The notes below the pieces were generated by a model. That model had not been told where the DNA came from and did no database searches. It saw nothing but the letters and a program-made list of their open reading frames with translations. A stretch of 59,175 nucleotides of DNA. Origin: a virus (lineage: Duplodnaviria; Caudoviricetes). The stretch spans positions 1-59,175 of IMG/VR virus record IMGVR_UViG_3300028392_000072; one strand, 5' to 3'. The translations under genes were made by a program, and so were the position numbers. Below are positions 35,898 to 59,049 of this stretch, piece after piece (position 1 is the stretch's first letter; each line of letters begins with the position of its first letter).

Positions 35898-35976
35898 ATG
35901 TGCGTGACTTTGAGGTAGTCACACTGTCAATGACAGACCCTCCTCTCGGAGTAAGTTAACCACTACGAAAACTTAG

Positions 35977-36052
35977 TAGTCAGTATTGGATTCGAACCAA
36001 TGTTTGATATCTGAATAGATATCCGTCCTGAATGCCGCTAGACGAACTGACC
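35977..36052 (-). tRNA. tRNA-Glu-like; 8-nt anticodon loop CUAUUCAG
   Basis: GGTCAGT/ACTGACT acceptor, GTCTAGCGG..AGGAC D-arm, GATAT/ATATC stem, canonical T-arm. Confidence 0.75.
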
Positions 36053-36060
36053 ATAAAAAA

Positions 36061-36908
36061 AAGGACTGAGATTACATCCTTATACGACAAGTCTTTGTTT
36101 GGATTATGTGTTCCCAAATCTATCCACCATCTTTTGGATGGTATCCTGTCAATACCGGTTAGTTAGACTAACCACTCCTTGAGTCACTGATCACTCTCCC
36201 TCTACTCTACTTATCCAACCCTCGCAGGCTAGTTCGGGATTCGACTCCCTATAAGCTTTTCGATGAAATCACACCAGTCTTTCGGACTTATGTGGCCAAG
36301 AACAACTCTTGACTAAGTAGGTACCTTTCATCAGTAACTAGATAACACTTTCGATTTGAGTTTAGTTTTGAATTAAATTTCAAATTTTAGTGCCGTAGAT
36401 TTATGTCGAAGTAGTGGTTATCTCTTAGTTTTCAAAGCTTTTGACCTCAAAAATTCTAGACTACTCCGTGTGATGCCTCCATCACAACTCTTTAAGATAT
36501 CTTCACTAGACCCTACCTTAGCAGGTCACCGACTTGGTAGTCAGTTTAGTGTTCATTAACAGCACCACCTGTACAATGAATTGTCTTTCGACTTTGAGAT
36601 ACCTCTCAAGTTGAAACTCGCAATGATGATAACTGGTTGGTCACCACTTCTCGCAAAATTCCTACGGATTATTCCTATTCTTCTTCCGAAGTCAACTAGA
36701 CAATCTACACTTACCTAGTCACTAAACCATTTCATCTACAGTGTTACCCTCGATTACTAAGGAATAGTGGTATTCCGTTTGCTTACCCGAGCTCAACCTT
36801 TCGGTCAAGCCGCAAACACATTTAGCATTTGTGATCACTTTATCCTCCTTTCAGAGATTATTTATGGACTATAAGCCGCCCCACTTACTCTAATGACCGA
36901 GGTCATTA
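36061..36908 (-). ncRNA. large structured ncRNA (~850 nt), GOLLD-like
   Basis: no ORF >=60 aa; visibly GC-richer than flanks; many GNRA/UUCG hairpins; ends AAGGATGTAATCTCAGTCCTT + U-tract; flanked by tRNAs; family assignment from memory. Confidence 0.6.
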
Positions 36909-36937: not shown

Positions 36938-36961
36938 ATTTTTATAGTTTTGTTTTTAATT

Positions 36962-37090
36962 TTGTTTTACAAAGATAAATAATTTATTTTAATCTACCAA
37001 ATATTTTTGTAAAAACTAATTTCTTTATTTTATACTCTCTATTTCAATTTTGTTTTACAAAAGTAGATAATTTATTTTAATCTACCTAAT
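36962..37090 (-). promoter_or_regulatory. tandem duplicated Bacteroidota-type promoters for the large RNA
   Basis: two copies of GGTAGATTAAAATAAATTAT(T/C)TA(TC/CT)TTTGTAAAACAAA. Confidence 0.7.
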
Positions 37091-37193
37091 TTATTTTTAA
37101 TTACTTTCTACCCCTCACACCTAACACCCTCTCGGAATGGTTTGTGTATAAAGACCTTAACATCTTTATCTTATAGTCGAGTAGGTAAACTCG

Positions 37194-46145: not shown

Positions 46146-47783
46146 TTAGACTAAAGAAAAACCTTCTTTCAAACTTACCGTTTTATTGAAACTTTTACCA
46201 TCAGTATCTAAAATATAATACCCCTTTCTCATCATTTGAACTGGCTCCTTGACGTTTAAAACGTGTGGTTCAAAGATTGCCTTATCATTAATTATAAGTG
46301 AATCTGTGTTGATGTAATTGATAAAATCATCTTCATTTTTATCCGGTGATTCATCATTGAATAATCTATCATATTCATTTACATTAACTCTAACTCCATG
46401 TTCAGCAGATACCCAGTGAATAGTTCCTTTAATCTTTCTTTCAAAAGTCATACCAGATCTTGTTAAAGGGTCGTAAGTACATCTAATTTCAATAACTTCT
46501 CCACTATCATTCTTGATAACTTCATTCGCTTTAATAACATAAGCACCTTTCAATCTTACTTCACCACCCAACTTTAATCTGTGGAATTTGTTATTAGCTT
46601 CTTCTCTGAAATCTTCCGATTCAATAAATAACTCACCACTAAAAGGAATCATTCTAGTACCAGCACTTTCATCACCAGGATTGTTTTCAACTTCAACCAT
46701 TTCAGTTCCATCATCCCAATTAGTAATAACTAACTTAACGGGATTCATTACACCCATCAATCTATTAGCAACTACATTCAAATCAGTTCTCAAACATTCT
46801 TCTAAAAGCAAGTAAGAAACAACTGACTCTTTTCTAGTAACAGAAATTCTATCACAGAAATCTTTAATAGCATTTGGTGTAAAACCTCTTCTTCTTAAAC
46901 CAGAAATAGTTGGCATTCTTGGATCATTCCAACCATCTACAAATCCTTCTTCAACTAATCTTTTTAATTTTCTCTTTGACATAACTGTATAGTCAATGTT
47001 CAAACGAGCAAACTCAGTTTCTTCTGGAAGTGGATTTTCTAAATCACAATTTTCCAAGACCCACATATATAAAGGTCTATGAACTTCAAATTCTAAAGTA
47101 CATAAAGAATCAGTGATACCTTCTTTATAATCTGAAAGTGGATGAGCAAAGTCATACATTGGATAAATCTTCCAAGTATCACCAGTTCTGTGGTGTGACT
47201 TACTGATAATTCTATAAAGAACCGGATCTCTTAAAATCATATTAGGAGAAGTCATATCAATATTGGCTCTCAAGATTTTAGAACCTTCAGAGAATTCACC
47301 TAATATCATTCTATTAAATAGGTCTAAGTTTTCTTCTATACTTCTAGATTTATAAGGTGAGTCTTTACCAACTGAAGTTGGTGTTCCTTTTAAGTTAGCA
47401 ATTTCTTCAGATGTTGAATCATCAACATAAGCTAATCCTTTCTTAATTAAAGTAACAGCACATTCATAAAGAAAATCAAAATAATCAGAGGTGTATCTGA
47501 TTTCACTTGGAGTATAACCAAGCCATTTTATATCTTCAATCATTGAATCTACAAACTCTTTTCTTTCAGTTGTTGGATTCGTGTCGTCAAATCTTAACAC
47601 ACACGGAGCATTATACTTTTCTGCTAATCCAAAATTTAATATAATGGATTTAGCGTGACCTAAGTGAAGACCACCCACAACTCTACCATCGTTTAGTATA
47701 GCTCCATTTGGTTCTGGTGGAAAACGAAGTTTTAACTTATCAAGATTTCCTTTTTCTAATATTTTTTCTTCTATGAAATTCAT
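46146..47783 (-). CDS. glnS: glutaminyl-tRNA synthetase
   Basis: RFPPEPNG, HLGH, RFDDTNP, YPMYDFAH, SLCTLEF, MSKR, KGTIHWVS. Confidence 0.95.
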   Translation of the reverse strand: MNFIEEKILEKGNLDKLKLRFPPEPNGAILNDGRVVGGLHLGHAKSIILNFGLAEKYNAPCVLRFDDTNPTTERKEFVDSMIEDIKWLGYTPSEIRYTSDYFDFLYECAVTLIKKGLAYVDDSTSEEIANLKGTPTSVGKDSPYKSRSIEENLDLFNRMILGEFSEGSKILRANIDMTSPNMILRDPVLYRIISKSHHRTGDTWKIYPMYDFAHPLSDYKEGITDSLCTLEFEVHRPLYMWVLENCDLENPLPEETEFARLNIDYTVMSKRKLKRLVEEGFVDGWNDPRMPTISGLRRRGFTPNAIKDFCDRISVTRKESVVSYLLLEECLRTDLNVVANRLMGVMNPVKLVITNWDDGTEMVEVENNPGDESAGTRMIPFSGELFIESEDFREEANNKFHRLKLGGEVRLKGAYVIKANEVIKNDSGEVIEIRCTYDPLTRSGMTFERKIKGTIHWVSAEHGVRVNVNEYDRLFNDESPDKNEDDFINYINTDSLIINDKAIFEPHVLNVKEPVQMMRKGYYILDTDGKSFNKTVSLKEGFSLV

Positions 47784-47811
47784 AATGTTTATATTTTTAT
47801 ATGTTGTTTAG

Positions 47812-47883
47812 TTGGAAAAACAGGGATCGAACCTGTATCTTCTGATTCAAAGTCAGAAATAATAACCATTATACTATTTTCCA
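47812..47883 (-). tRNA. tRNA-Gln (TTG), very AU-rich
   Basis: TGGAAAA/TTTTCCA; TCTGA-CTTTGAA-TCAGA. Confidence 0.85.
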
Positions 47884-47910
47884 ATATTACTACTATCTAG
47901 AGTAGTTTTG

Positions 47911-47991
47911 CTATCCGGGTAGGACTCGAACCTACACGCCTTTCGGCATCCGCTTCAAAGGCGGATGTGGCTGCCATTTCACCACCGGACA
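47911..47991 (-). tRNA. tRNA with Gln anticodon (TTG) and Leu-like body with long variable arm
   Basis: TCCGC-CTTTGAA-GCGGA; V-arm GCC-GAAA-GGC; G73. Confidence 0.85.
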
Positions 47992-48048
47992 ATTTGTTAT
48001 ATTAAATTTCTAAATGTCAAACTCATTCTACCGGAATTTGTATGAAAT

Positions 48049-48083
48049 AAAAAAACCCTGTCCAAAAAGATTGAACAGGGTTT
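48049..48083 (-). terminator. attenuator terminator 1 (upstream of tRNA-Gln x2 + glnS)
   Basis: minus strand AAACCCTGTTCAA-loop-TTGGACAGGGTTTTTTT. Confidence 0.8.
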
Positions 48084-48111
48084 GTAAAGTTTACACAATA
48101 CTATTCCATTA

Positions 48112-48162
48112 TCAATCTGTTCGATTAATTTGTTGTTGCTGGAATTGTGTTGTTGTTCTCAT
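48112..48162 (-). CDS. Gln-rich leader peptide MRTTTQFQQQQINRTD
   Basis: 5 Gln codons; 3' end GAACAG/AGATTGA complementary to terminator 5' arm CTGTTC/TCAATCT; TATCTTTG promoter element at ~48206-48213. Confidence 0.8.
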   Translation of the reverse strand: MRTTTQFQQQQINRTD

Positions 48163-48196
48163 TTTAATTTCTTTTTTTACAATATTAGTTATATTT

Positions 48197-49024
48197 TTAT
48201 TCATACAAAGATATAAAATTTTTTCCATATTTACCGACCACATAGTCTAAATATATCTTTATGTCTTTCTTGTATATAACTTTTATTTCATATGGGAAAT
48301 ATGAAATTTTAGCATTTGTTAAATCCGATTCAAAGTTCTTAATTTCCACATACTCATCATTAACTATAAAATCTGGATAAAATAAATGTTTTTTATTTTT
48401 ATAAAAATATTCAAATCCTTTTTTATTTCTTTCAATTTTTATATTATGATCAATACAATATATTAAATATGCTAATTCATAACTACTATCCAACCAATAA
48501 CCTTTATACCACCCTGACTTACCTCTACTACTTCCTTTTTTAATACCACCTGATATCTCTAACCAACATTTTTTATGATACTTTTGTTCTCTGTATTTTT
48601 GATTAACTCCACATTCTCCACATTTTAAACAAGTAAATTGTATTATCTTCTTATCTCTTTTAGGCGGGATAAACATATTTCCATTTAAAATTAACGAATT
48701 TCTTATTTTACTTTTTGTTTCTTCAGATAGTGTTCTTTGTCTAGAACATTTATCAGAACAATATTTTCTTAAAATTTGTTTATTTTTATCTCTTTCAAAT
48801 TCAGATATCGTAGATTCAACCTCAAATTTAGTATTACATCTTAAACAATTTCTAATTTCTACAACTCTATCAACTTTATTACAACCTTTAAATAACTTAC
48901 TAAGATTTTCTTTTCTTTTCTCAAAATTTGGATTTTCATCACAACACGCAACATGTGAAGCAAATCCTTGTTGTTTTTCAACGAATATTAATTTTTTACA
49001 CCATTTACATTCTTTTATATACAT
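48197..49024 (-). CDS. homing-type endonuclease (Zn fingers + TnsA-like PD-(D/E)XK)
   Basis: CxxC pairs; DSSYELAY, FYPDF, VEIK. Confidence 0.7.
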   Translation of the reverse strand: MYIKECKWCKKLIFVEKQQGFASHVACCDENPNFEKRKENLSKLFKGCNKVDRVVEIRNCLRCNTKFEVESTISEFERDKNKQILRKYCSDKCSRQRTLSEETKSKIRNSLILNGNMFIPPKRDKKIIQFTCLKCGECGVNQKYREQKYHKKCWLEISGGIKKGSSRGKSGWYKGYWLDSSYELAYLIYCIDHNIKIERNKKGFEYFYKNKKHLFYPDFIVNDEYVEIKNFESDLTNAKISYFPYEIKVIYKKDIKIYLDYVVGKYGKNFISLYE

Positions 49025-49076
49025 AGATTATATATTAAAAATTAAACGGTCCCTATCAAAAACGAACCCAAACATG

Positions 49077-49152
49077 CGGATCTAATGGGATTCGAACCCA
49101 CCTGATCTTCCGAGTGACAGTCGGACGGACACACCAAGCATCCCCTAGATCC
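49077..49152 (-). tRNA. tRNA-Asp (GTC), atypical D-arm
   Basis: TCCGA-CTGTCAC-TCGGA; G73; G at position 8. Confidence 0.85.
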
Positions 49153-49161
49153 ATATTTTTG

Positions 49162-49235
49162 TCTAAGTGACAGGGTTCGAACCTGCGGCCTGAGAGTCCC
49201 AAACTCCCCGCTCTACCAAACTGAGCTACACCTAG
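49162..49235 (-). tRNA. tRNA-Pro (TGG)
   Basis: loop TTTGGGA; C1-G72, A73. Confidence 0.9.
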
Positions 49236-49297
49236 TTTTTGAGAATTCTTTTACTCTATTCCCAAAAGAGTACGTTTCTGTCCAATTATACTTCGTG

Positions 49298-49370
49298 TTG
49301 TCCCACAAGGGTTCGAACCTCGACTCTTCGGTACCAAAAACCGACGTGTTGCCAATTACACCATAAGACA
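49298..49370 (-). tRNA. tRNA-Gln (TTG)
   Basis: TCGGT-TTTTGGT-ACCGA; U1-A72. Confidence 0.9.
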
Positions 49371-49372
49371 AT

Positions 49373-49407
49373 AAAAAACCCTCATAAGAACTAACTTATG
49401 AGGGTTT
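49373..49407 (-). terminator. attenuator terminator 2 (upstream of tRNA Gln/Pro/Asp)
   Basis: minus strand AAACCCTCATAAG-loop-CTTATGAGGGTTTTTT. Confidence 0.85.
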
Positions 49408-49429
49408 ACAAATCGTTTAATGTTTTTAA

Positions 49430-49525
49430 TTAACTTATTGTAAAGACATAGTTAGTCACTTCCTTAGAATCCTGATCCTGAGGTTGCGGGTTAACTTGTG
49501 CGATATTTACGTTAATTGTTTTCAT
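49430..49525 (-). CDS. leader peptide MKTINVNIAQVNPQPQDQDSKEVTNYVFTIS
   Basis: Q/P/D tract matches downstream tRNAs; GACTAACTATG can pair with terminator CATAAGTTAGTT. Confidence 0.8.
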   Translation of the reverse strand: MKTINVNIAQVNPQPQDQDSKEVTNYVFTIS

Positions 49526-49572
49526 TTTATTATATAGTAAATTGTTTATGTCTCTTTTAATGTTTATTCTTA

Positions 49573-49611
49573 TTTTATACAAATATAGATAAAAGTTTTA
49601 TATCTGCCTAA
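49573..49611 (-). promoter_or_regulatory. Bacteroidota-type promoter for leader 2; near-identical to the leader-3 promoter
   Basis: TTAGGCAGATATAAAACTTTTATCTATATTTGTATAAAAT; copy at ~58834-58873. Confidence 0.75.
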
Positions 49612-49698
49612 TTTATTTTGTAAAAAAATTGAGACTTGTATCTGAATCGTTTCCCATCCCAATTCACAAAAATAAGGTAGGTTTTTTAATCCACCAAA

Positions 49699-50415
49699 TT
49701 ATTCTGTATCTTTTTTAAAATCATTATATCTTTTAATTTTATCACCACCTTTTAAATTATCAACCTTTGACTTCATTTCGTCATCCATAATCATAGGTAT
49801 TAACCTATTACCGATTGTCTTAGGGTCCTTTAGATATTTTTCAGTAGGTCTCTTATAATCATAACTATCTATATCACTATCTATAAATTTATAATCACCA
49901 GTAGTTGTTTCAAATCCAAATCTATTGAAGAAGGTAACTAATTCTTTTAGTGATTCATCAGAAAAACCAAAATATGTTTCAGGATCATATAAAGAATCTT
50001 TACCATTATAATGATGCACATTTACTTTATTTGGATAATCAATTGTAAACTCATACATCATTGAGTCACCATATGTTAAGTCAATGTTTAATCTTAGTGA
50101 ATTTGAAGGATTAGATTCTGTTCCATCATTATCTTTAACCATAGTAATATCAAATTGTAAGTTGTCTGGTTCACCATCTGCTGTTGGATCATCATCTTTT
50201 TTATCAAGAGTACTCTGAGAGTACATAACCGAAACACAATTCATTAAATTATAAATACCAGGGTATCCATCATCTCCAGGTTCCAAACTTTTCACATCTA
50301 ATGTAAACTCACCATTTTGATTAATAATAGTTAGTTTTTTAGGCAAAAGTTTTACCCATTCAGAAGAGTCAAAAATAGATATTTTATTCTCATTGAACTT
50401 TTTAATATATTTCAT
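49699..50415 (-). CDS. N-tagged hypothetical protein, paralog of 57076..57726
   Basis: MKYIKKFNE; PDNLQFDI, DLTYGDSM, EFTI..PNKV. Confidence 0.75.
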   Translation of the reverse strand: MKYIKKFNENKISIFDSSEWVKLLPKKLTIINQNGEFTLDVKSLEPGDDGYPGIYNLMNCVSVMYSQSTLDKKDDDPTADGEPDNLQFDITMVKDNDGTESNPSNSLRLNIDLTYGDSMMYEFTIDYPNKVNVHHYNGKDSLYDPETYFGFSDESLKELVTFFNRFGFETTTGDYKFIDSDIDSYDYKRPTEKYLKDPKTIGNRLIPMIMDDEMKSKVDNLKGGDKIKRYNDFKKDTE

Positions 50416-58833: not shown

Positions 58834-58873
58834 ATTTTATACAAAAATAGATAAAAGTTTTATATCTGCCTAA
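58834..58873 (-). promoter_or_regulatory. Bacteroidota-type promoter for leader 3 (plus TAATATATA at ~58791-58799)
   Basis: TTAGGCAGATATAAAACTTTTATCTATTTTTGTATAAAAT. Confidence 0.75.
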
Positions 58874-58890
58874 TATTTTTAATTTTTATT

Positions 58891-59049
58891 TTAAATTGTC
58901 ATTGGTCTATTTAATTTACTCCAATCATCAATCTGCCTTTTCTTTTCAATTAGTTCTATTTGTAACTGAAGTTCTTCAATAATCTTATCAAATTCTTCAC
59001 CTTTAATTACCTTATCAGGGTCAAATTTAATATCTTCTATTTTTTTCAT
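58891..59049 (-). CDS. small hypothetical protein (52 aa, not in track)
   Basis: MKKIEDIKFDPDK...RPMTI; TATATTTG just upstream. Confidence 0.5.
   Translation of the reverse strand: MKKIEDIKFDPDKVIKGEEFDKIIEELQLQIELIEKKRQIDDWSKLNRPMTI

What the first reader, a model, noticed from the sequence alone, without database searches (positions are those of the whole stretch)
49077..49611. Gln/Pro/Asp leader (QVNPQPQDQD) ahead of tRNA-Gln, -Pro and -Asp
Seen: the control tract CAA GTT AAC CCG CAA CCT CAG GAT CAG GAT contains Q, P and D codons, first appearing in the same order as the tRNAs (Gln, Pro, Asp). GACTAACTATG (49447-49457) can pair with CATAAGTTAGTT of the terminator. The N-terminus MKTINVN resembles leader 3's MTTINLN, and the two promoters are ~40-bp near-duplicates. 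Inference: one ancestral attenuator cassette was re-tuned to each array.
Basis: partly seen in the sequence, partly recalled or inferred. Interest (0 to 1): 0.85.

Follow-up and report, generated by a model that had tools for sequence, protein, structure and literature searches.

The report
Leader-peptide attenuators gating phage tRNA arrays
A huge phage puts a tiny test gene, rich in the codons read by the tRNAs just downstream, plus a transcription stop signal in front of each tRNA cluster, so it probably makes more of a tRNA only when that tRNA runs short.

Summary
On the minus strand a Bacteroidota-type promoter (49611-49580) is followed by a 31-codon ORF (49525-49430, MKTINVNIAQVNPQPQDQDSKEVTNYVFTIS). 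An intrinsic terminator (49404-49373) ends 2 nt before tRNA-Gln, -Pro and -Asp. The window holds two sibling cassettes: Q-run leader > tRNA-Gln x2 > GlnRS, and N/M/L/T/V leader > Asn/Leu/Val/Thr/Met array.

In related huge phages I found 39 such cassettes. All place the ORF stop 21-35 nt before the terminator. Leader residues match their own array far better than permuted arrays (0 of 20000, also within genomes). Control codons are rare G-ending ones (44% against 3.5% background). The 3' part of the ORF is complementary to the terminator's 5' arm in 28 of 39 cassettes (p<=0.05), with compensatory changes among 27 homologues of this cassette. A metagenome scan gave 47 more Gln/Pro/Asp-type leaders; 175 of 181 downstream tRNAs are Asp, Pro or Gln.

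Best reading: classical ribosome-mediated attenuation, here gating tRNA genes as a supply-on-demand loop. Ten full-text searches found no description of this. The "same order" detail is coincidental. No expression data exist; the mechanism is inferred.

The parts
49580..49611 (-). Promoter of cassette B: -33-like TTAGG (49611-49607) and Bacteroidota-type -7 element TATATTTG (49587-49580), 62 nt upstream of the leader ATG
   Evidence: Read. The 27-nt block is repeated exactly at 58873-58847; the wider block is 42/43 identical over 43 nt. TAnnTTTG lies within 150 nt upstream of the leader ATG in 26 of 39 cassettes, against 0.16 expected per 150 nt. That this motif is the Bacteroidota -7 element is recalled, not tested.
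49430..49525 (-). Leader ORF, 31 codons plus TAA: MKTINVNIAQVNPQPQDQDSKEVTNYVFTIS
   Evidence: It is the only small ORF ending 15-40 nt before this terminator. Gaps among homologues within the ORF are multiples of 3. An identical peptide occurs on 4 metagenome contigs.
49469..49498 (-). Control tract CAA GTT AAC CCG CAA CCT CAG GAT CAG GAT (core PQPQDQD = 49489-49469): the proposed ribosome stall sites
   Evidence: The run of 7 {Q,P,D} residues is unique among 590 small ORFs. The last control codon lies 14 nt before the first paired base of segment 2.
49492..49499 (-). Segment 1 (ACAAGTTA): weak partner of segment 2 in the full-length minimum-energy fold
   Evidence: 1:2 hairpin plus terminator; -35.7 kcal/mol, z -4.0. 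Only 5-8 pairs; conservation not shown.
49437..49458 (-). Segment 2, 5' strand of the antiterminator (TGACTAACTATGTCTTTACAAT), inside codons 23-30 of the leader
   Evidence: -13.7 kcal/mol, z -2.47, p 0.023; it forms in the nascent transcript when a ribosome is placed on the control codons. Covariation.
49389..49412 (-). Segment 3 (TTTGTAAACCCTCATAAGTTAGTT): 8 nt of 5' flank, 5' arm and loop of the terminator; pairs either with segment 2 or with segment 4
   Evidence: GTT[A/G]GT is kept in 30 of 30 homologous terminators although there are 20 distinct hairpins.
49373..49404 (-). Intrinsic terminator: stem 49404-49395 / 49388-49379, loop 49394-49389, T6 49378-49373; ends 2 nt before tRNA-Gln
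   Evidence: Hairpin -14.8 kcal/mol, or -18.4 with the A/U extension. Compensatory changes in homologues.
49076..49370 (-). Regulated array: tRNA-Gln(ttg) 49370-49297, tRNA-Pro(tgg) 49235-49161, tRNA-Asp(gtc) 49152-49076
   Evidence: ARAGORN; Rfam tRNA, 41.6-60.1 bits.
46146..48162 (-). Sibling cassette C: leader MRTTTQFQQQQINRTD (48162-48112), terminator 48080-48049, tRNA-Gln x2 (47991-47910, 47883-47811), glutaminyl-tRNA synthetase (47783-46146)
   Evidence: Q-run leaders precede all 11 Gln arrays examined. Segment 2 overlaps the stop codon (p 0.067 in the window copy, 0.000-0.007 in 8 of the 10 homologues, 0.040 and 0.093 in the other two).
57726..58873 (-). Sibling cassette A: promoter 58873-58842, leader MTTINLNMNMNTLTVVNNTLCIRPCEGFDLFKGFVN (58782-58672), segment 2 TGAGGGTTTTG (58708-58698), segment 3 CAAAACCCTCA (58644-58634), terminator 58639-58612, then tRNA-Asn ... 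Leu, Val, Thr, Leu, Met (58598-57726)
   Evidence: -19.6 kcal/mol, p 0.003; run of 16 {N,M,L,T,V} residues; next best 8.

Best explanation
This is a ribosome-mediated (leader-peptide) transcription attenuator placed in front of a tRNA array. It is one of a family that gates most tRNA arrays of this huge phage and its relatives, which probably infect Bacteroidota.

Proposed sequence of events:
1. Transcription starts at the promoter about 45 nt before the leader ATG.
2. A ribosome translates the 31-codon leader while RNA polymerase moves on.
3. If charged tRNA-Gln, -Pro and -Asp are plentiful, the ribosome runs through PQPQDQD to the end of the ORF. There it covers the 3' half of segment 2. Segment 3 then pairs with segment 4, the terminator forms, and the transcript ends 2 nt before tRNA-Gln.
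4. If any of these charged tRNAs is scarce, the ribosome stalls on the control codons, about 10-14 nt upstream of segment 2. Segment 2 is then free to pair with segment 3 as soon as it is made. The terminator cannot form and polymerase reads into the tRNA genes. In cassette C it also reads into GlnRS.

Because the products are the very tRNAs being sensed, the circuit is a negative-feedback, supply-on-demand loop for each tRNA set. The rare G-ending codons make it sensitive.

Shown: the anatomy, its conservation, codon-to-array matching, complementarity and covariation. Inferred: translation of the leader, stalling, antitermination, and what is sensed.
For: 1. Anatomy in the window: promoter, ORF, terminator and tRNA with only 2 nt between the T-tract and the tRNA.

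2. Family. 41 hairpin+T sites lie before tRNAs in the 31 sources scanned (window plus 30 loci). 39 have an ATG ORF whose stop lies 15-40 nt (observed 21-35) before the stem. 132 of 216 tRNAs lie in contiguous arrays headed by a cassette; in the window 11 of 13.

3. Tuning. The mean share of leader residues matching the own array is 0.343, against 0.156 +- 0.018 for permuted arrays (0 of 20000). Within genomes it is 0.389 against 0.184 (0 of 20000). Within orthologous classes 48 of 5000 permutations reach the observed fit. Examples:
- SSSSRSS > Arg, Ser x3
- KKKKK > Lys x4
- HKHF..KWF > His, Lys, Trp, Phe
- YYYEGE > Glu, Tyr, Gly
- LLL..LLL > Leu x4

4. Codons. Q codons fit an anticodon of the own array in 70 of 70 cases, and Arg codon boxes in 10 of 12. 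NNG codons in four-fold boxes:
- control codons: 38/86
- window ORFs: 143/4119 (Fisher 1.6e-30)
- other leader codons: 17/127 (1e-6)

5. Antiterminator. Complementarity beats dinucleotide shuffles (p<=0.05) in 28 of 39 cassettes and p<=0.01 in 21 of 39. The native partner is in the top 10% of swaps in 19 of 39.

6. Covariation on 27 type-B homologues. Terminator: 93.3% paired, 19 double changes against 4.4 +- 1.8. Antiterminator: 86.5% paired, 22 double changes against 10.9 +- 2.1, with pair 21:54 split CG 7 / UA 7. Slid controls pair in 14-49%.

7. Folding. The stalled-ribosome mask gives 2:3 in the nascent RNA. The stop-codon mask gives the terminator.

8. No TAnnTTTG promoter motif lies between terminator and tRNA in 0 of 39 cassettes.

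9. Independent sample. Of 57 unique small ORFs from the metagenome scan, 47 are type-B leaders. 45 of the 45 with room have a terminator. 175 of 181 array tRNAs are Asp, Pro or Gln.

10. A relaxed Rfam scan gives a sub-threshold full-length His_leader match (31 bits, E 0.012) on exactly this element.
Against: - There is no expression, ribosome-profiling or termination data. No RNA run holds the stretch.
Significance appears only after I widened segment 3 by 8 nt, a choice made after seeing the data.
- At equilibrium the terminator (-18.4 kcal/mol) beats the antiterminator (-13.1), so the model needs kinetic control.
- Segment 1:2 pairing is weak. The nascent RNA forms 2:3 even without a ribosome, so the untranslated default may be read-through, unlike the trp operon.
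- Matching is imperfect. L013 has Pro codons in the leader but no tRNA-Pro was called. CCT (10 of 25 Pro codons) is not read by anticodon tgg under simple wobble. Ser codons match in only 21 of 34 cases.
- 11 of 39 cassettes show no significant 2:3 pairing.
- Many cassettes are orthologues, so counts are not independent. The shuffle controls are not probabilities, and the segment 2 core was fixed by my search pattern.
- G-ending codons could partly serve RNA structure.
Confidence: 0.8

Rival explanations
1. Same attenuator machinery, but the signal is amino-acid starvation (free Gln, Pro or Asp), as in biosynthetic operons, not tRNA abundance. The phage would raise tRNA output when amino acids are short.
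For: Stalling reports charged tRNA, which falls in either case. The anatomy cannot tell the two apart.
Against: More tRNA does not relieve amino-acid shortage, so the loop would have no pay-off. The products are tRNAs and, for Gln, the charging enzyme. Control codons are chosen at isoacceptor level: Arg CGN with anticodon acg/gcg arrays and AGA with tct arrays, 10 of 12, plus NNG enrichment. That points to tRNA species, not amino acids. This is inference only.
Confidence: 0.15
2. The terminator is regulated, but by a trans-acting factor, not by translation of the ORF. Candidates are a phage antiterminator protein, an RNA-binding protein, or direct tRNA-RNA contact of the T-box kind. The ORF would be incidental or only a structural spacer.
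For: No direct evidence of translation. Huge phages encode many unknown proteins. The 1:2 element is weak.
Against: In-frame codon runs track the array in 39 cassettes. Gaps in the ORF are multiples of 3. The stop codon sits at a fixed distance from the terminator. Control-codon choice is specific. There is no T-box or other riboswitch match at gathering score in the window or at E<=1 in 47990-49700.
Confidence: 0.06
3. Ordinary small gene followed by its own terminator. The tRNAs are transcribed independently, and the resemblance of codons to the array is chance or low complexity.
For: AT-rich genomes hold many small ORFs (590 in this window). 8 of 39 cassettes have 57-106 nt between terminator and tRNA, where an unrecognised promoter could sit.
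Against: The gap is 2-26 nt in 31 of 39 cassettes, and no -7 motif lies in any gap (0 of 39). Permutation tests give 0 of 20000. Each window leader is the single extreme of 590 ORFs for its own set. In three Flavobacteriales genomes the same pipeline finds 1 cassette in 37 tRNA-upstream gaps.
Confidence: 0.03

Closest known systems
Leader-peptide attenuators of amino-acid biosynthetic operons (trp, his, leu, thr, ilv, pheA of enterobacteria; Rfam His_leader RF00514, Phe_leader RF01859)
   Same: Promoter-proximal short ORF with clustered regulatory codons, an intrinsic terminator, and a mutually exclusive antiterminator that shares the terminator's 5' arm. Energies are of the same order. Rare codons are used as sensors; the leu leader's CUA codons are recalled, not checked. 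Some leaders are multi-amino-acid, as in thr and ilv (recalled).
   Different: The regulated genes are tRNAs, not enzymes. The host is a Bacteroidota-type phage without Shine-Dalgarno-like leaders. Segment 1:2 is weak. Segment 2 lies inside or at the end of the ORF, so the terminating ribosome itself masks it. Rfam scores are below gathering: His_leader 31 against 49 bits, Phe_leader 26.4 against 55. It is therefore not a member of those sequence families.
pheST (pheM leader) attenuator of E. coli (recalled)
   Same: A leader-peptide attenuator that controls a component of the translation apparatus cognate to the sensed codons. Cassette C likewise controls GlnRS behind a Q-run leader.
   Different: There the target is the synthetase only. 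Here tRNA genes come first and are the sole target in most cassettes. 0 of 72 bacterial glnS loci, mostly Flavobacteriales, have a Q-run small ORF upstream.
T-box riboswitches
   Same: A tRNA-specific feedback on transcription read-through by a terminator/antiterminator switch, controlling genes of the cognate aminoacylation pathway.
   Different: A T-box binds uncharged tRNA directly and needs no translation. No T-box match was found here. Specificity here is written as translated codons, and several tRNAs are sensed at once.
Phage tRNA clusters (T4, mycobacteriophages, vibriophages, huge phages)
   Same: Arrays of phage tRNAs, thought to sustain translation when host tRNAs do not fit or are destroyed (recalled). 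Huge phages carry up to 67 tRNAs and many synthetases (PMC7162821, passages seen).
   Different: No attenuation control of such arrays turned up in ten full-text searches. The main text of PMC7162821 has 0 occurrences of 'attenuat' and 0 of 'leader'. Its supplements could not be seen.
E. coli tRNA-Phe genes pheU/pheV
   Same: I recalled a possible Phe-rich leader before these tRNA genes, which would have been a precedent.
   Different: Not borne out. In K-12 both tRNAs directly follow a sigma-70-like promoter, with no ORF-plus-terminator between them.

Membership tests
Ribosome-mediated (leader-peptide) transcription attenuator | Short ORF with start and stop codon between promoter and regulated genes | tested here: met
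   31-codon ORF 49525-49430, with the promoter -7 motif 62 nt upstream. 39 of 41 hairpin+T sites upstream of a tRNA have such an ORF.
Ribosome-mediated (leader-peptide) transcription attenuator | Cluster of regulatory codons cognate to the regulated function | tested here: met
   PQPQDQD before Gln/Pro/Asp tRNAs. Permutations give 0 of 20000. The run is unique among 590 small ORFs. 175 of 181 tRNAs after type-B leaders are Asp, Pro or Gln.
Ribosome-mediated (leader-peptide) transcription attenuator | Intrinsic terminator between leader and regulated genes | tested here: met
   A 10-13 bp GC-rich stem plus T6 ends 2 nt before the tRNA. Covariation.
Ribosome-mediated (leader-peptide) transcription attenuator | Antiterminator (2:3) mutually exclusive with the terminator | tested here: met
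   Window copy: -13.7 kcal/mol, p 0.023 with the extended segment 3; the core alone gives p 0.11. Family: 28 of 39 at p<=0.05. Compensatory changes.
Ribosome-mediated (leader-peptide) transcription attenuator | Anti-antiterminator / pause hairpin (1:2) | tested here: inconclusive
   Present in the full-length minimum-energy fold, but it has only 5-8 pairs. The nascent RNA prefers 2:3. Conservation was not tested.
Ribosome-mediated (leader-peptide) transcription attenuator | Geometry: a ribosome stalled on control codons leaves segment 2 free, and a ribosome at the ORF end covers it | tested here: met
   The distance from the last control codon to segment 2 is 9-16 nt in 32 of 39 cassettes (14 nt here). 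By my reading of the per-cassette rows, the 3' end of segment 2 lies within -18..+12 nt of the stop codon in most cassettes. Masked folds.
Ribosome-mediated (leader-peptide) transcription attenuator | Read-through rises when the cognate charged tRNA is limiting | not testable with these tools
   No RNA data; needs experiment.
Rfam His_leader (RF00514) / Phe_leader (RF01859) | Score at or above the curated gathering threshold | tested here: not met
   His_leader 31 bits against 49; Phe_leader 26.4 against 55. No leader family appears at gathering score.
T-box riboswitch | Match to the T-box model (specifier loop, T-box sequence) | tested here: not met
   No match at gathering score in the window, nor at E<=1 in 47990-49700 and 57950-58900.

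The most novel reading that the evidence does not exclude
Huge Bacteroidota phages run a genome-wide, codon-resolved tRNA homeostat. Nearly every tRNA array is gated by its own leader peptide, whose codon 'barcode' is re-written as tRNAs enter or leave the array. Tandem gates occur: the Asp/Pro leader keeps Gln codons because a promoter-less Gln gate lies downstream. Rare wobble-read codons make the sensors hungry. Phage tRNA output would thus respond automatically to host tRNA loss, for example from anticodon nucleases or host shut-off. A similar leader before a variable tRNA array, at least 14 tRNAs long in the best-sampled genome, occurs in four Weeksellaceae chromosomes. This hints that leader-peptide control of tRNA operons is an unrecognised regulatory mode in Bacteroidota at large.
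Probability: 0.5. Interest if true: 0.9.

Novelty: new variant of a known kind. Interest (0 to 1): 0.85.

Why it matters
Textbook attenuators sense charged tRNA in order to regulate amino-acid supply. Here the same device appears to regulate the tRNAs themselves, closing a direct feedback loop on tRNA abundance.

That would explain how phages with 45-68 tRNA genes avoid making them blindly. It gives a sequence-readable label of which tRNAs each array is meant to supply; leaders could even predict the identity of odd tRNA-like genes. It also ties phage tRNA arrays to host tRNA depletion and anti-phage tRNA nucleases in a testable way.

The cassettes are compact (about 200 nt) and modular, with specificity set only by codons. 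That makes them attractive as sensors of tRNA supply. The bacterial look-alike suggests that tRNA operon control in Bacteroidota deserves a fresh look.

Tried and rejected
- Codon order equals tRNA order: rejected as a rule. Identical leaders head arrays in different orders. L018 has leader order Q, P, D but array order Gln, Asp, Pro.
It is kept only as part of a two-helix structure.
- Classical 1:2 pause hairpin: weak and left open.
- RNA evidence: no RNA holder listed. The two listed runs hold small shares (0.06-0.07) as contigs.
- Precedent in E. coli pheU/pheV, from my memory: not found in the K-12 sequence. PMC3082878 (passages seen) concerns pheL/pheA only.
- Bacterial glnS with a Q leader: 0 of the 72 loci that had a full 1200-nt upstream flank, out of 80 fetched. 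GlnRS loci of phages without a tRNA-Gln upstream (L014) have no Q leader. L011 has a Q-rich small ORF about 520 nt upstream, left unresolved.
- Relaxed ARAGORN on the odd tRNA-like genes of array A gave unreliable identities.
- N-terminal DNA pattern scan: 74 short ORFs in the 118 loci examined (L146-L263), only 5 followed by a tRNA within 200 nt, so the pattern alone is unspecific.
- Rows dropped: two weak hairpins (L023 before tRNA-Cys, L033 before a 'Pyl(cta)' call) without a suitably placed ORF. L002, L003 and L029 were left out as duplicates. '???' tRNAs were left out of amino-acid sets.
- Supplements of papers were not consulted. Those of PMC7162821 might bear on tRNA annotation.
Full report
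**What is there.**

The window is a whole IMG/VR record of 59,175 bp. It is estimated 15% complete and is AT-rich. Its nearest GenBank relatives are the uncultured huge phages LR745206.1 (634,780 bp) and LR756502.1. A paper on such phages states that the genomes above 634 kb belong to the Mahaphage clade and are predicted to infect Bacteroidetes (PMC7162821, passages seen). The closest cellular GlnRS sequences are from Flavobacteriales, at 53-55% identity.

All features of the finding lie on the minus strand:
- a promoter with TTAGG and TATATTTG (49611-49580)
- a 31-codon ORF, 49525-49430 (MKTINVNIAQVNPQPQDQDSKEVTNYVFTIS)
- a hairpin, CCCTCATAAG-TTAGTT-CTTATGAGGG, followed by T6 (49404-49373)
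- 2 nt later, tRNA-Gln(ttg), then tRNA-Pro(tgg) and tRNA-Asp(gtc)

An independent consensus scan finds two terminator-like sites in 47900-49700, where 0.4 +- 0.6 are expected. They are this one and the one of the next cassette.

**Siblings in the window.**

- Cassette C: MRTTTQFQQQQINRTD (48162-48112), terminator 48080-48049, two tRNA-Gln, then a complete glutaminyl-tRNA synthetase.
- Cassette A: a promoter 42/43 identical to that of cassette B, MTTINLNMNMNTLTVVNNTL... (58782-58672), terminator 58639-58612, then tRNA-Asn, Leu, Val, Thr, Leu, Met.

On the minus strand only these three of five strong terminators have a small ORF ending 15-40 nt upstream. Among 590 small ATG ORFs of the window, each leader is the single extreme for runs of its own amino-acid set:
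- leader B, {Q,P,D}: run of 7, next best 4
- leader C, Q: run of 4
- leader A, {N,M,L,T,V}: run of 16, next best 8

**The family.**

I collected related loci in four ways: GlnRS as an anchor, a leader pattern, the whole tRNA complements of four related records with 45-68 tRNA matches each, and the GenBank relative.

A fixed rule was applied: the best hairpin plus T4 within 140 nt before a tRNA, and an ATG ORF whose stop lies 15-40 nt before the stem. It found 41 hairpin sites in 31 sources. 39 of them had such an ORF, with spacing of 21-35 nt. Two weak hairpins were dropped.

Leaders and arrays correspond across many amino acids:
- Q runs before all 11 Gln arrays
- SSSSRSS, SRSRSSRS and SSSSRSS before Ser/Arg arrays
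- KKKKK before four tRNA-Lys
- HKHFSKSNKWF before His/Lys/Trp/Phe arrays
- AYYYEGE and IGAYEAGYAYEG before Tyr/Glu/Gly/Ala arrays
- LLLSVLGLLL before four tRNA-Leu

132 of 216 tRNAs in the fetched regions lie in contiguous arrays headed by a cassette. The figure is 181 of 216 if gaps up to 1500 nt are allowed, and 11 of 13 in the window.

**Statistics of tuning.**

- The share of leader residues that match the own array is 0.343, against 0.156 +- 0.018 under global permutation (0 of 20000).
- With permutation inside each genome it is 0.389 against 0.184 +- 0.025 (0 of 20000).
- Even among orthologous cassettes of one class, leaders fit their own array better than the arrays of the same class in other genomes (48 of 5000). 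For example, the G003 leader lacks W and gains N, T and S. Its array lacks tRNA-Trp and holds Asn x2, Ser x2 and Thr.
- At codon level, Q codons fit in 70 of 70 cases. Arg boxes follow the anticodon (CGN with acg/gcg, AGA with tct) in 10 of 12. Ser fits in only 21 of 34 and Pro in 14 of 25 under simple wobble.
- Control codons are strongly enriched in G-ending codons that the genome avoids. In four-fold boxes the share is 38/86, against 143/4119 in the window's 52 long ORFs (Fisher 1.6e-30). It is 17/127 for non-array residues in the same part of the leaders (1e-6) and 24/115 in or after segment 2 (6e-4).

**RNA switch.**

Folding the whole leader gives a 5' hairpin plus the terminator (-35.7 kcal/mol, z -4.0, 0 of 200 shuffles as good).

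With the 8 nt before the stem included, a second helix (CTTTACAA:TTGTAAA) joins it: -13.7 kcal/mol, z -2.47, p 0.023. I made that extension after seeing cassette A, where TGAGGGTTTTG pairs perfectly with CAAAACCCTCA (-19.6 kcal/mol).

Across the family the test gives p<=0.05 in 28 of 39 cassettes and p<=0.01 in 21 of 39. With the narrower definition it was 25 of 39. In a swap control the native partner ranks in the top 10% in 19 of 39.

Masked folds fit the model. With a ribosome on Pro13, Gln16 or Asp19 the nascent RNA forms 2:3 (-13.1 kcal/mol). With a ribosome at the stop codon, segment 2 is half covered and the terminator forms. The last control codon lies 9-16 nt before segment 2 in 32 of 39 cassettes.

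Weak points: the terminator is more stable than the antiterminator, so kinetics must decide. The 1:2 element is feeble, and the nascent RNA forms 2:3 even without a ribosome.

**Independent sample and covariation.**

All 119 were examined.
- They gave 57 unique small ORFs, of which 47 are leader-like.
- All 45 with enough downstream sequence have a terminator. Spacing is 22-28 nt in the first 30.
- In those 30, GTT[A/G]GT is kept in the 5' arm or loop although there are 20 different hairpins.
- 175 of 181 tRNAs in the arrays are Asp, Pro or Gln.

On a MAFFT alignment of 27 such elements:
- The terminator pairs in 93.3% of cells, with 19 double-sided changes against 4.4 +- 1.8 in shuffles. Slid controls pair in 14-49%.
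- The antiterminator pairs in 86.5%, with 22 double-sided changes against 10.9 +- 2.1 (0 of 500). Slid controls pair in 21-42%. Pair 21:54 is split CG 7 / UA 7 and pair 23:52 UA 11 / AU 10.

One strand of that helix is coding (VFTI against VFMI) and the other is non-coding. The compensation therefore argues for RNA pairing, not peptide conservation. Caveats: the sequences are related, and the segment 2 core was fixed by my pattern.

**Promoters and tandem gates.**

A TAnnTTTG motif lies within 150 nt before the leader ATG in 26 of 39 cassettes, against a background of 0.16 per 150 nt. It lies between terminator and tRNA in none.

Gln leaders that directly follow an Asp/Pro array (L001, L005-L007) have no motif of their own. 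tRNA-Gln there would need read-through of two gates. That may be why Asp/Pro leaders keep Gln codons.

**Controls in bacteria.**

- 0 of 72 bacterial glnS loci have a Q-run ORF upstream.
- In three Flavobacteriales genomes the same pipeline examined 37 tRNA-upstream gaps, taken from the 30 best-scoring tRNA loci. 5 had a hairpin and 1 had a suitably placed ORF.
- That one is interesting. In a Chryseobacterium genome, MKQLHNIFNRYSRLFGQEPTGVACILESEIVDKRCLYTWVS ends 26 nt before a terminator, which ends 2 nt before tRNA-His and at least 13 more tRNAs. It is conserved at 79-84% identity in three more genomes of the family, with different arrays.
- Its antiterminator test is not significant (p 0.16), and the array covers most amino acids. 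It is a lead only.

**Comparison with the known.**

The device works like the classical leader-peptide attenuators. A relaxed Rfam scan even gives a full-length but sub-threshold His_leader match on it (31 against 49 bits, E 0.012). It is not a member of any curated leader family, and it is not a T-box.

What differs is the target: tRNA genes, plus GlnRS in cassette C. What also differs is the scale: most arrays of a genome, each with its own codon set.

Ten full-text searches found no paper describing leader-peptide attenuation of tRNA genes or arrays. These searches cover open-access papers and bioRxiv only. My recollection of a precedent at E. coli pheU/pheV was checked against the K-12 sequence and not borne out.

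**Verdict.**

It is one member of a large, previously undescribed family of attenuators that gate phage tRNA arrays.

| Claim | Confidence |
|---|---|
| The cassette is a regulatory leader-terminator unit tuned to its array | about 0.9 |
| It works by ribosome stalling and antitermination | about 0.8 |
| tRNA supply, not amino-acid supply, is the relevant signal | about 0.6, by inference |

No experiment or transcript data support it yet.

Noticed in passing
window 36063-36468 (-), with 35976-36052 and 36960-37110: GOLLD RNA (Rfam RF02032, 265 bits, full model). An odd tRNA-like gene that ARAGORN calls with a 4-base anticodon 'attc' follows immediately. Two near-repeated promoter-like blocks (aTTTGGTAGATTAAAATAAATTAT...TTTG) precede it. 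The structured region seems to extend upstream of the Rfam match.
   Followed up: no
window 47910-47991 (-); also L001 3013-3094, L005 5823-5905, L008 5651-5732, L013 5744-5830, L016 5743-5826: A conserved 82-87 nt tRNA with anticodon UUG (Gln) and a long extra arm. This is unusual for tRNA-Gln. It always sits in the Gln array before GlnRS.
   Followed up: no
window 58349-58427 and 58434-58512 (-): Two more Rfam tRNA matches above gathering score (36.7 and 35.8 bits). Both ARAGORN and the first whole-window Rfam pass missed them. Their identity is unclear. Leader A contains I, C and R codons (..TLCIR..) with no called tRNA to match, so the leader may predict their identity.
   Followed up: partly
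window 48197-49024 (-): A 275-aa Cys-rich ORF sits between array B and cassette C. It has no Pfam match and a weak PHROG endonuclease match (E 5.5e-4). It is absent from this position in L001 and L005-L007, where the Gln leader directly follows the Asp/Pro array. It is probably a homing-endonuclease insertion.
   Followed up: partly
L116 782-964 (Chryseobacterium sediminis contig; also L265, L266, L267): Bacterial look-alike: a 41-45 codon ORF (MKQLHNIFNRYSRLFGQEP...KRCLYTWVS) ends 26 nt before a terminator, which ends 2 nt before tRNA-His and a long, variable tRNA array. It is conserved in 4 genomes of the family. Antiterminator test p 0.16.
   Followed up: partly
L001 3301-3417, L005 5627-5742, L006 5636-5752, L007 5710-5826: Gln leaders placed 148-152 nt after an Asp/Pro array have no promoter motif of their own. 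The two attenuators therefore appear to act in tandem on one transcript.
   Followed up: partly
L027 about 2131 and L033 about 1913: ARAGORN calls tRNAs with anticodon CTA ('Pyl') in two related huge-phage genomes. These are possible amber suppressors, which would hint at stop-codon recoding in relatives. The window's long ORFs read normally under table 11.
   Followed up: no
L011, about 520-610 nt upstream of GlnRS: A Q-rich small ORF (MIIISIYKNMSQTQTHIQQLQQQFDTKG) lies upstream of GlnRS with no ARAGORN tRNA between them. It may be a diverged Gln cassette, or there may be undetected tRNAs.
   Followed up: no
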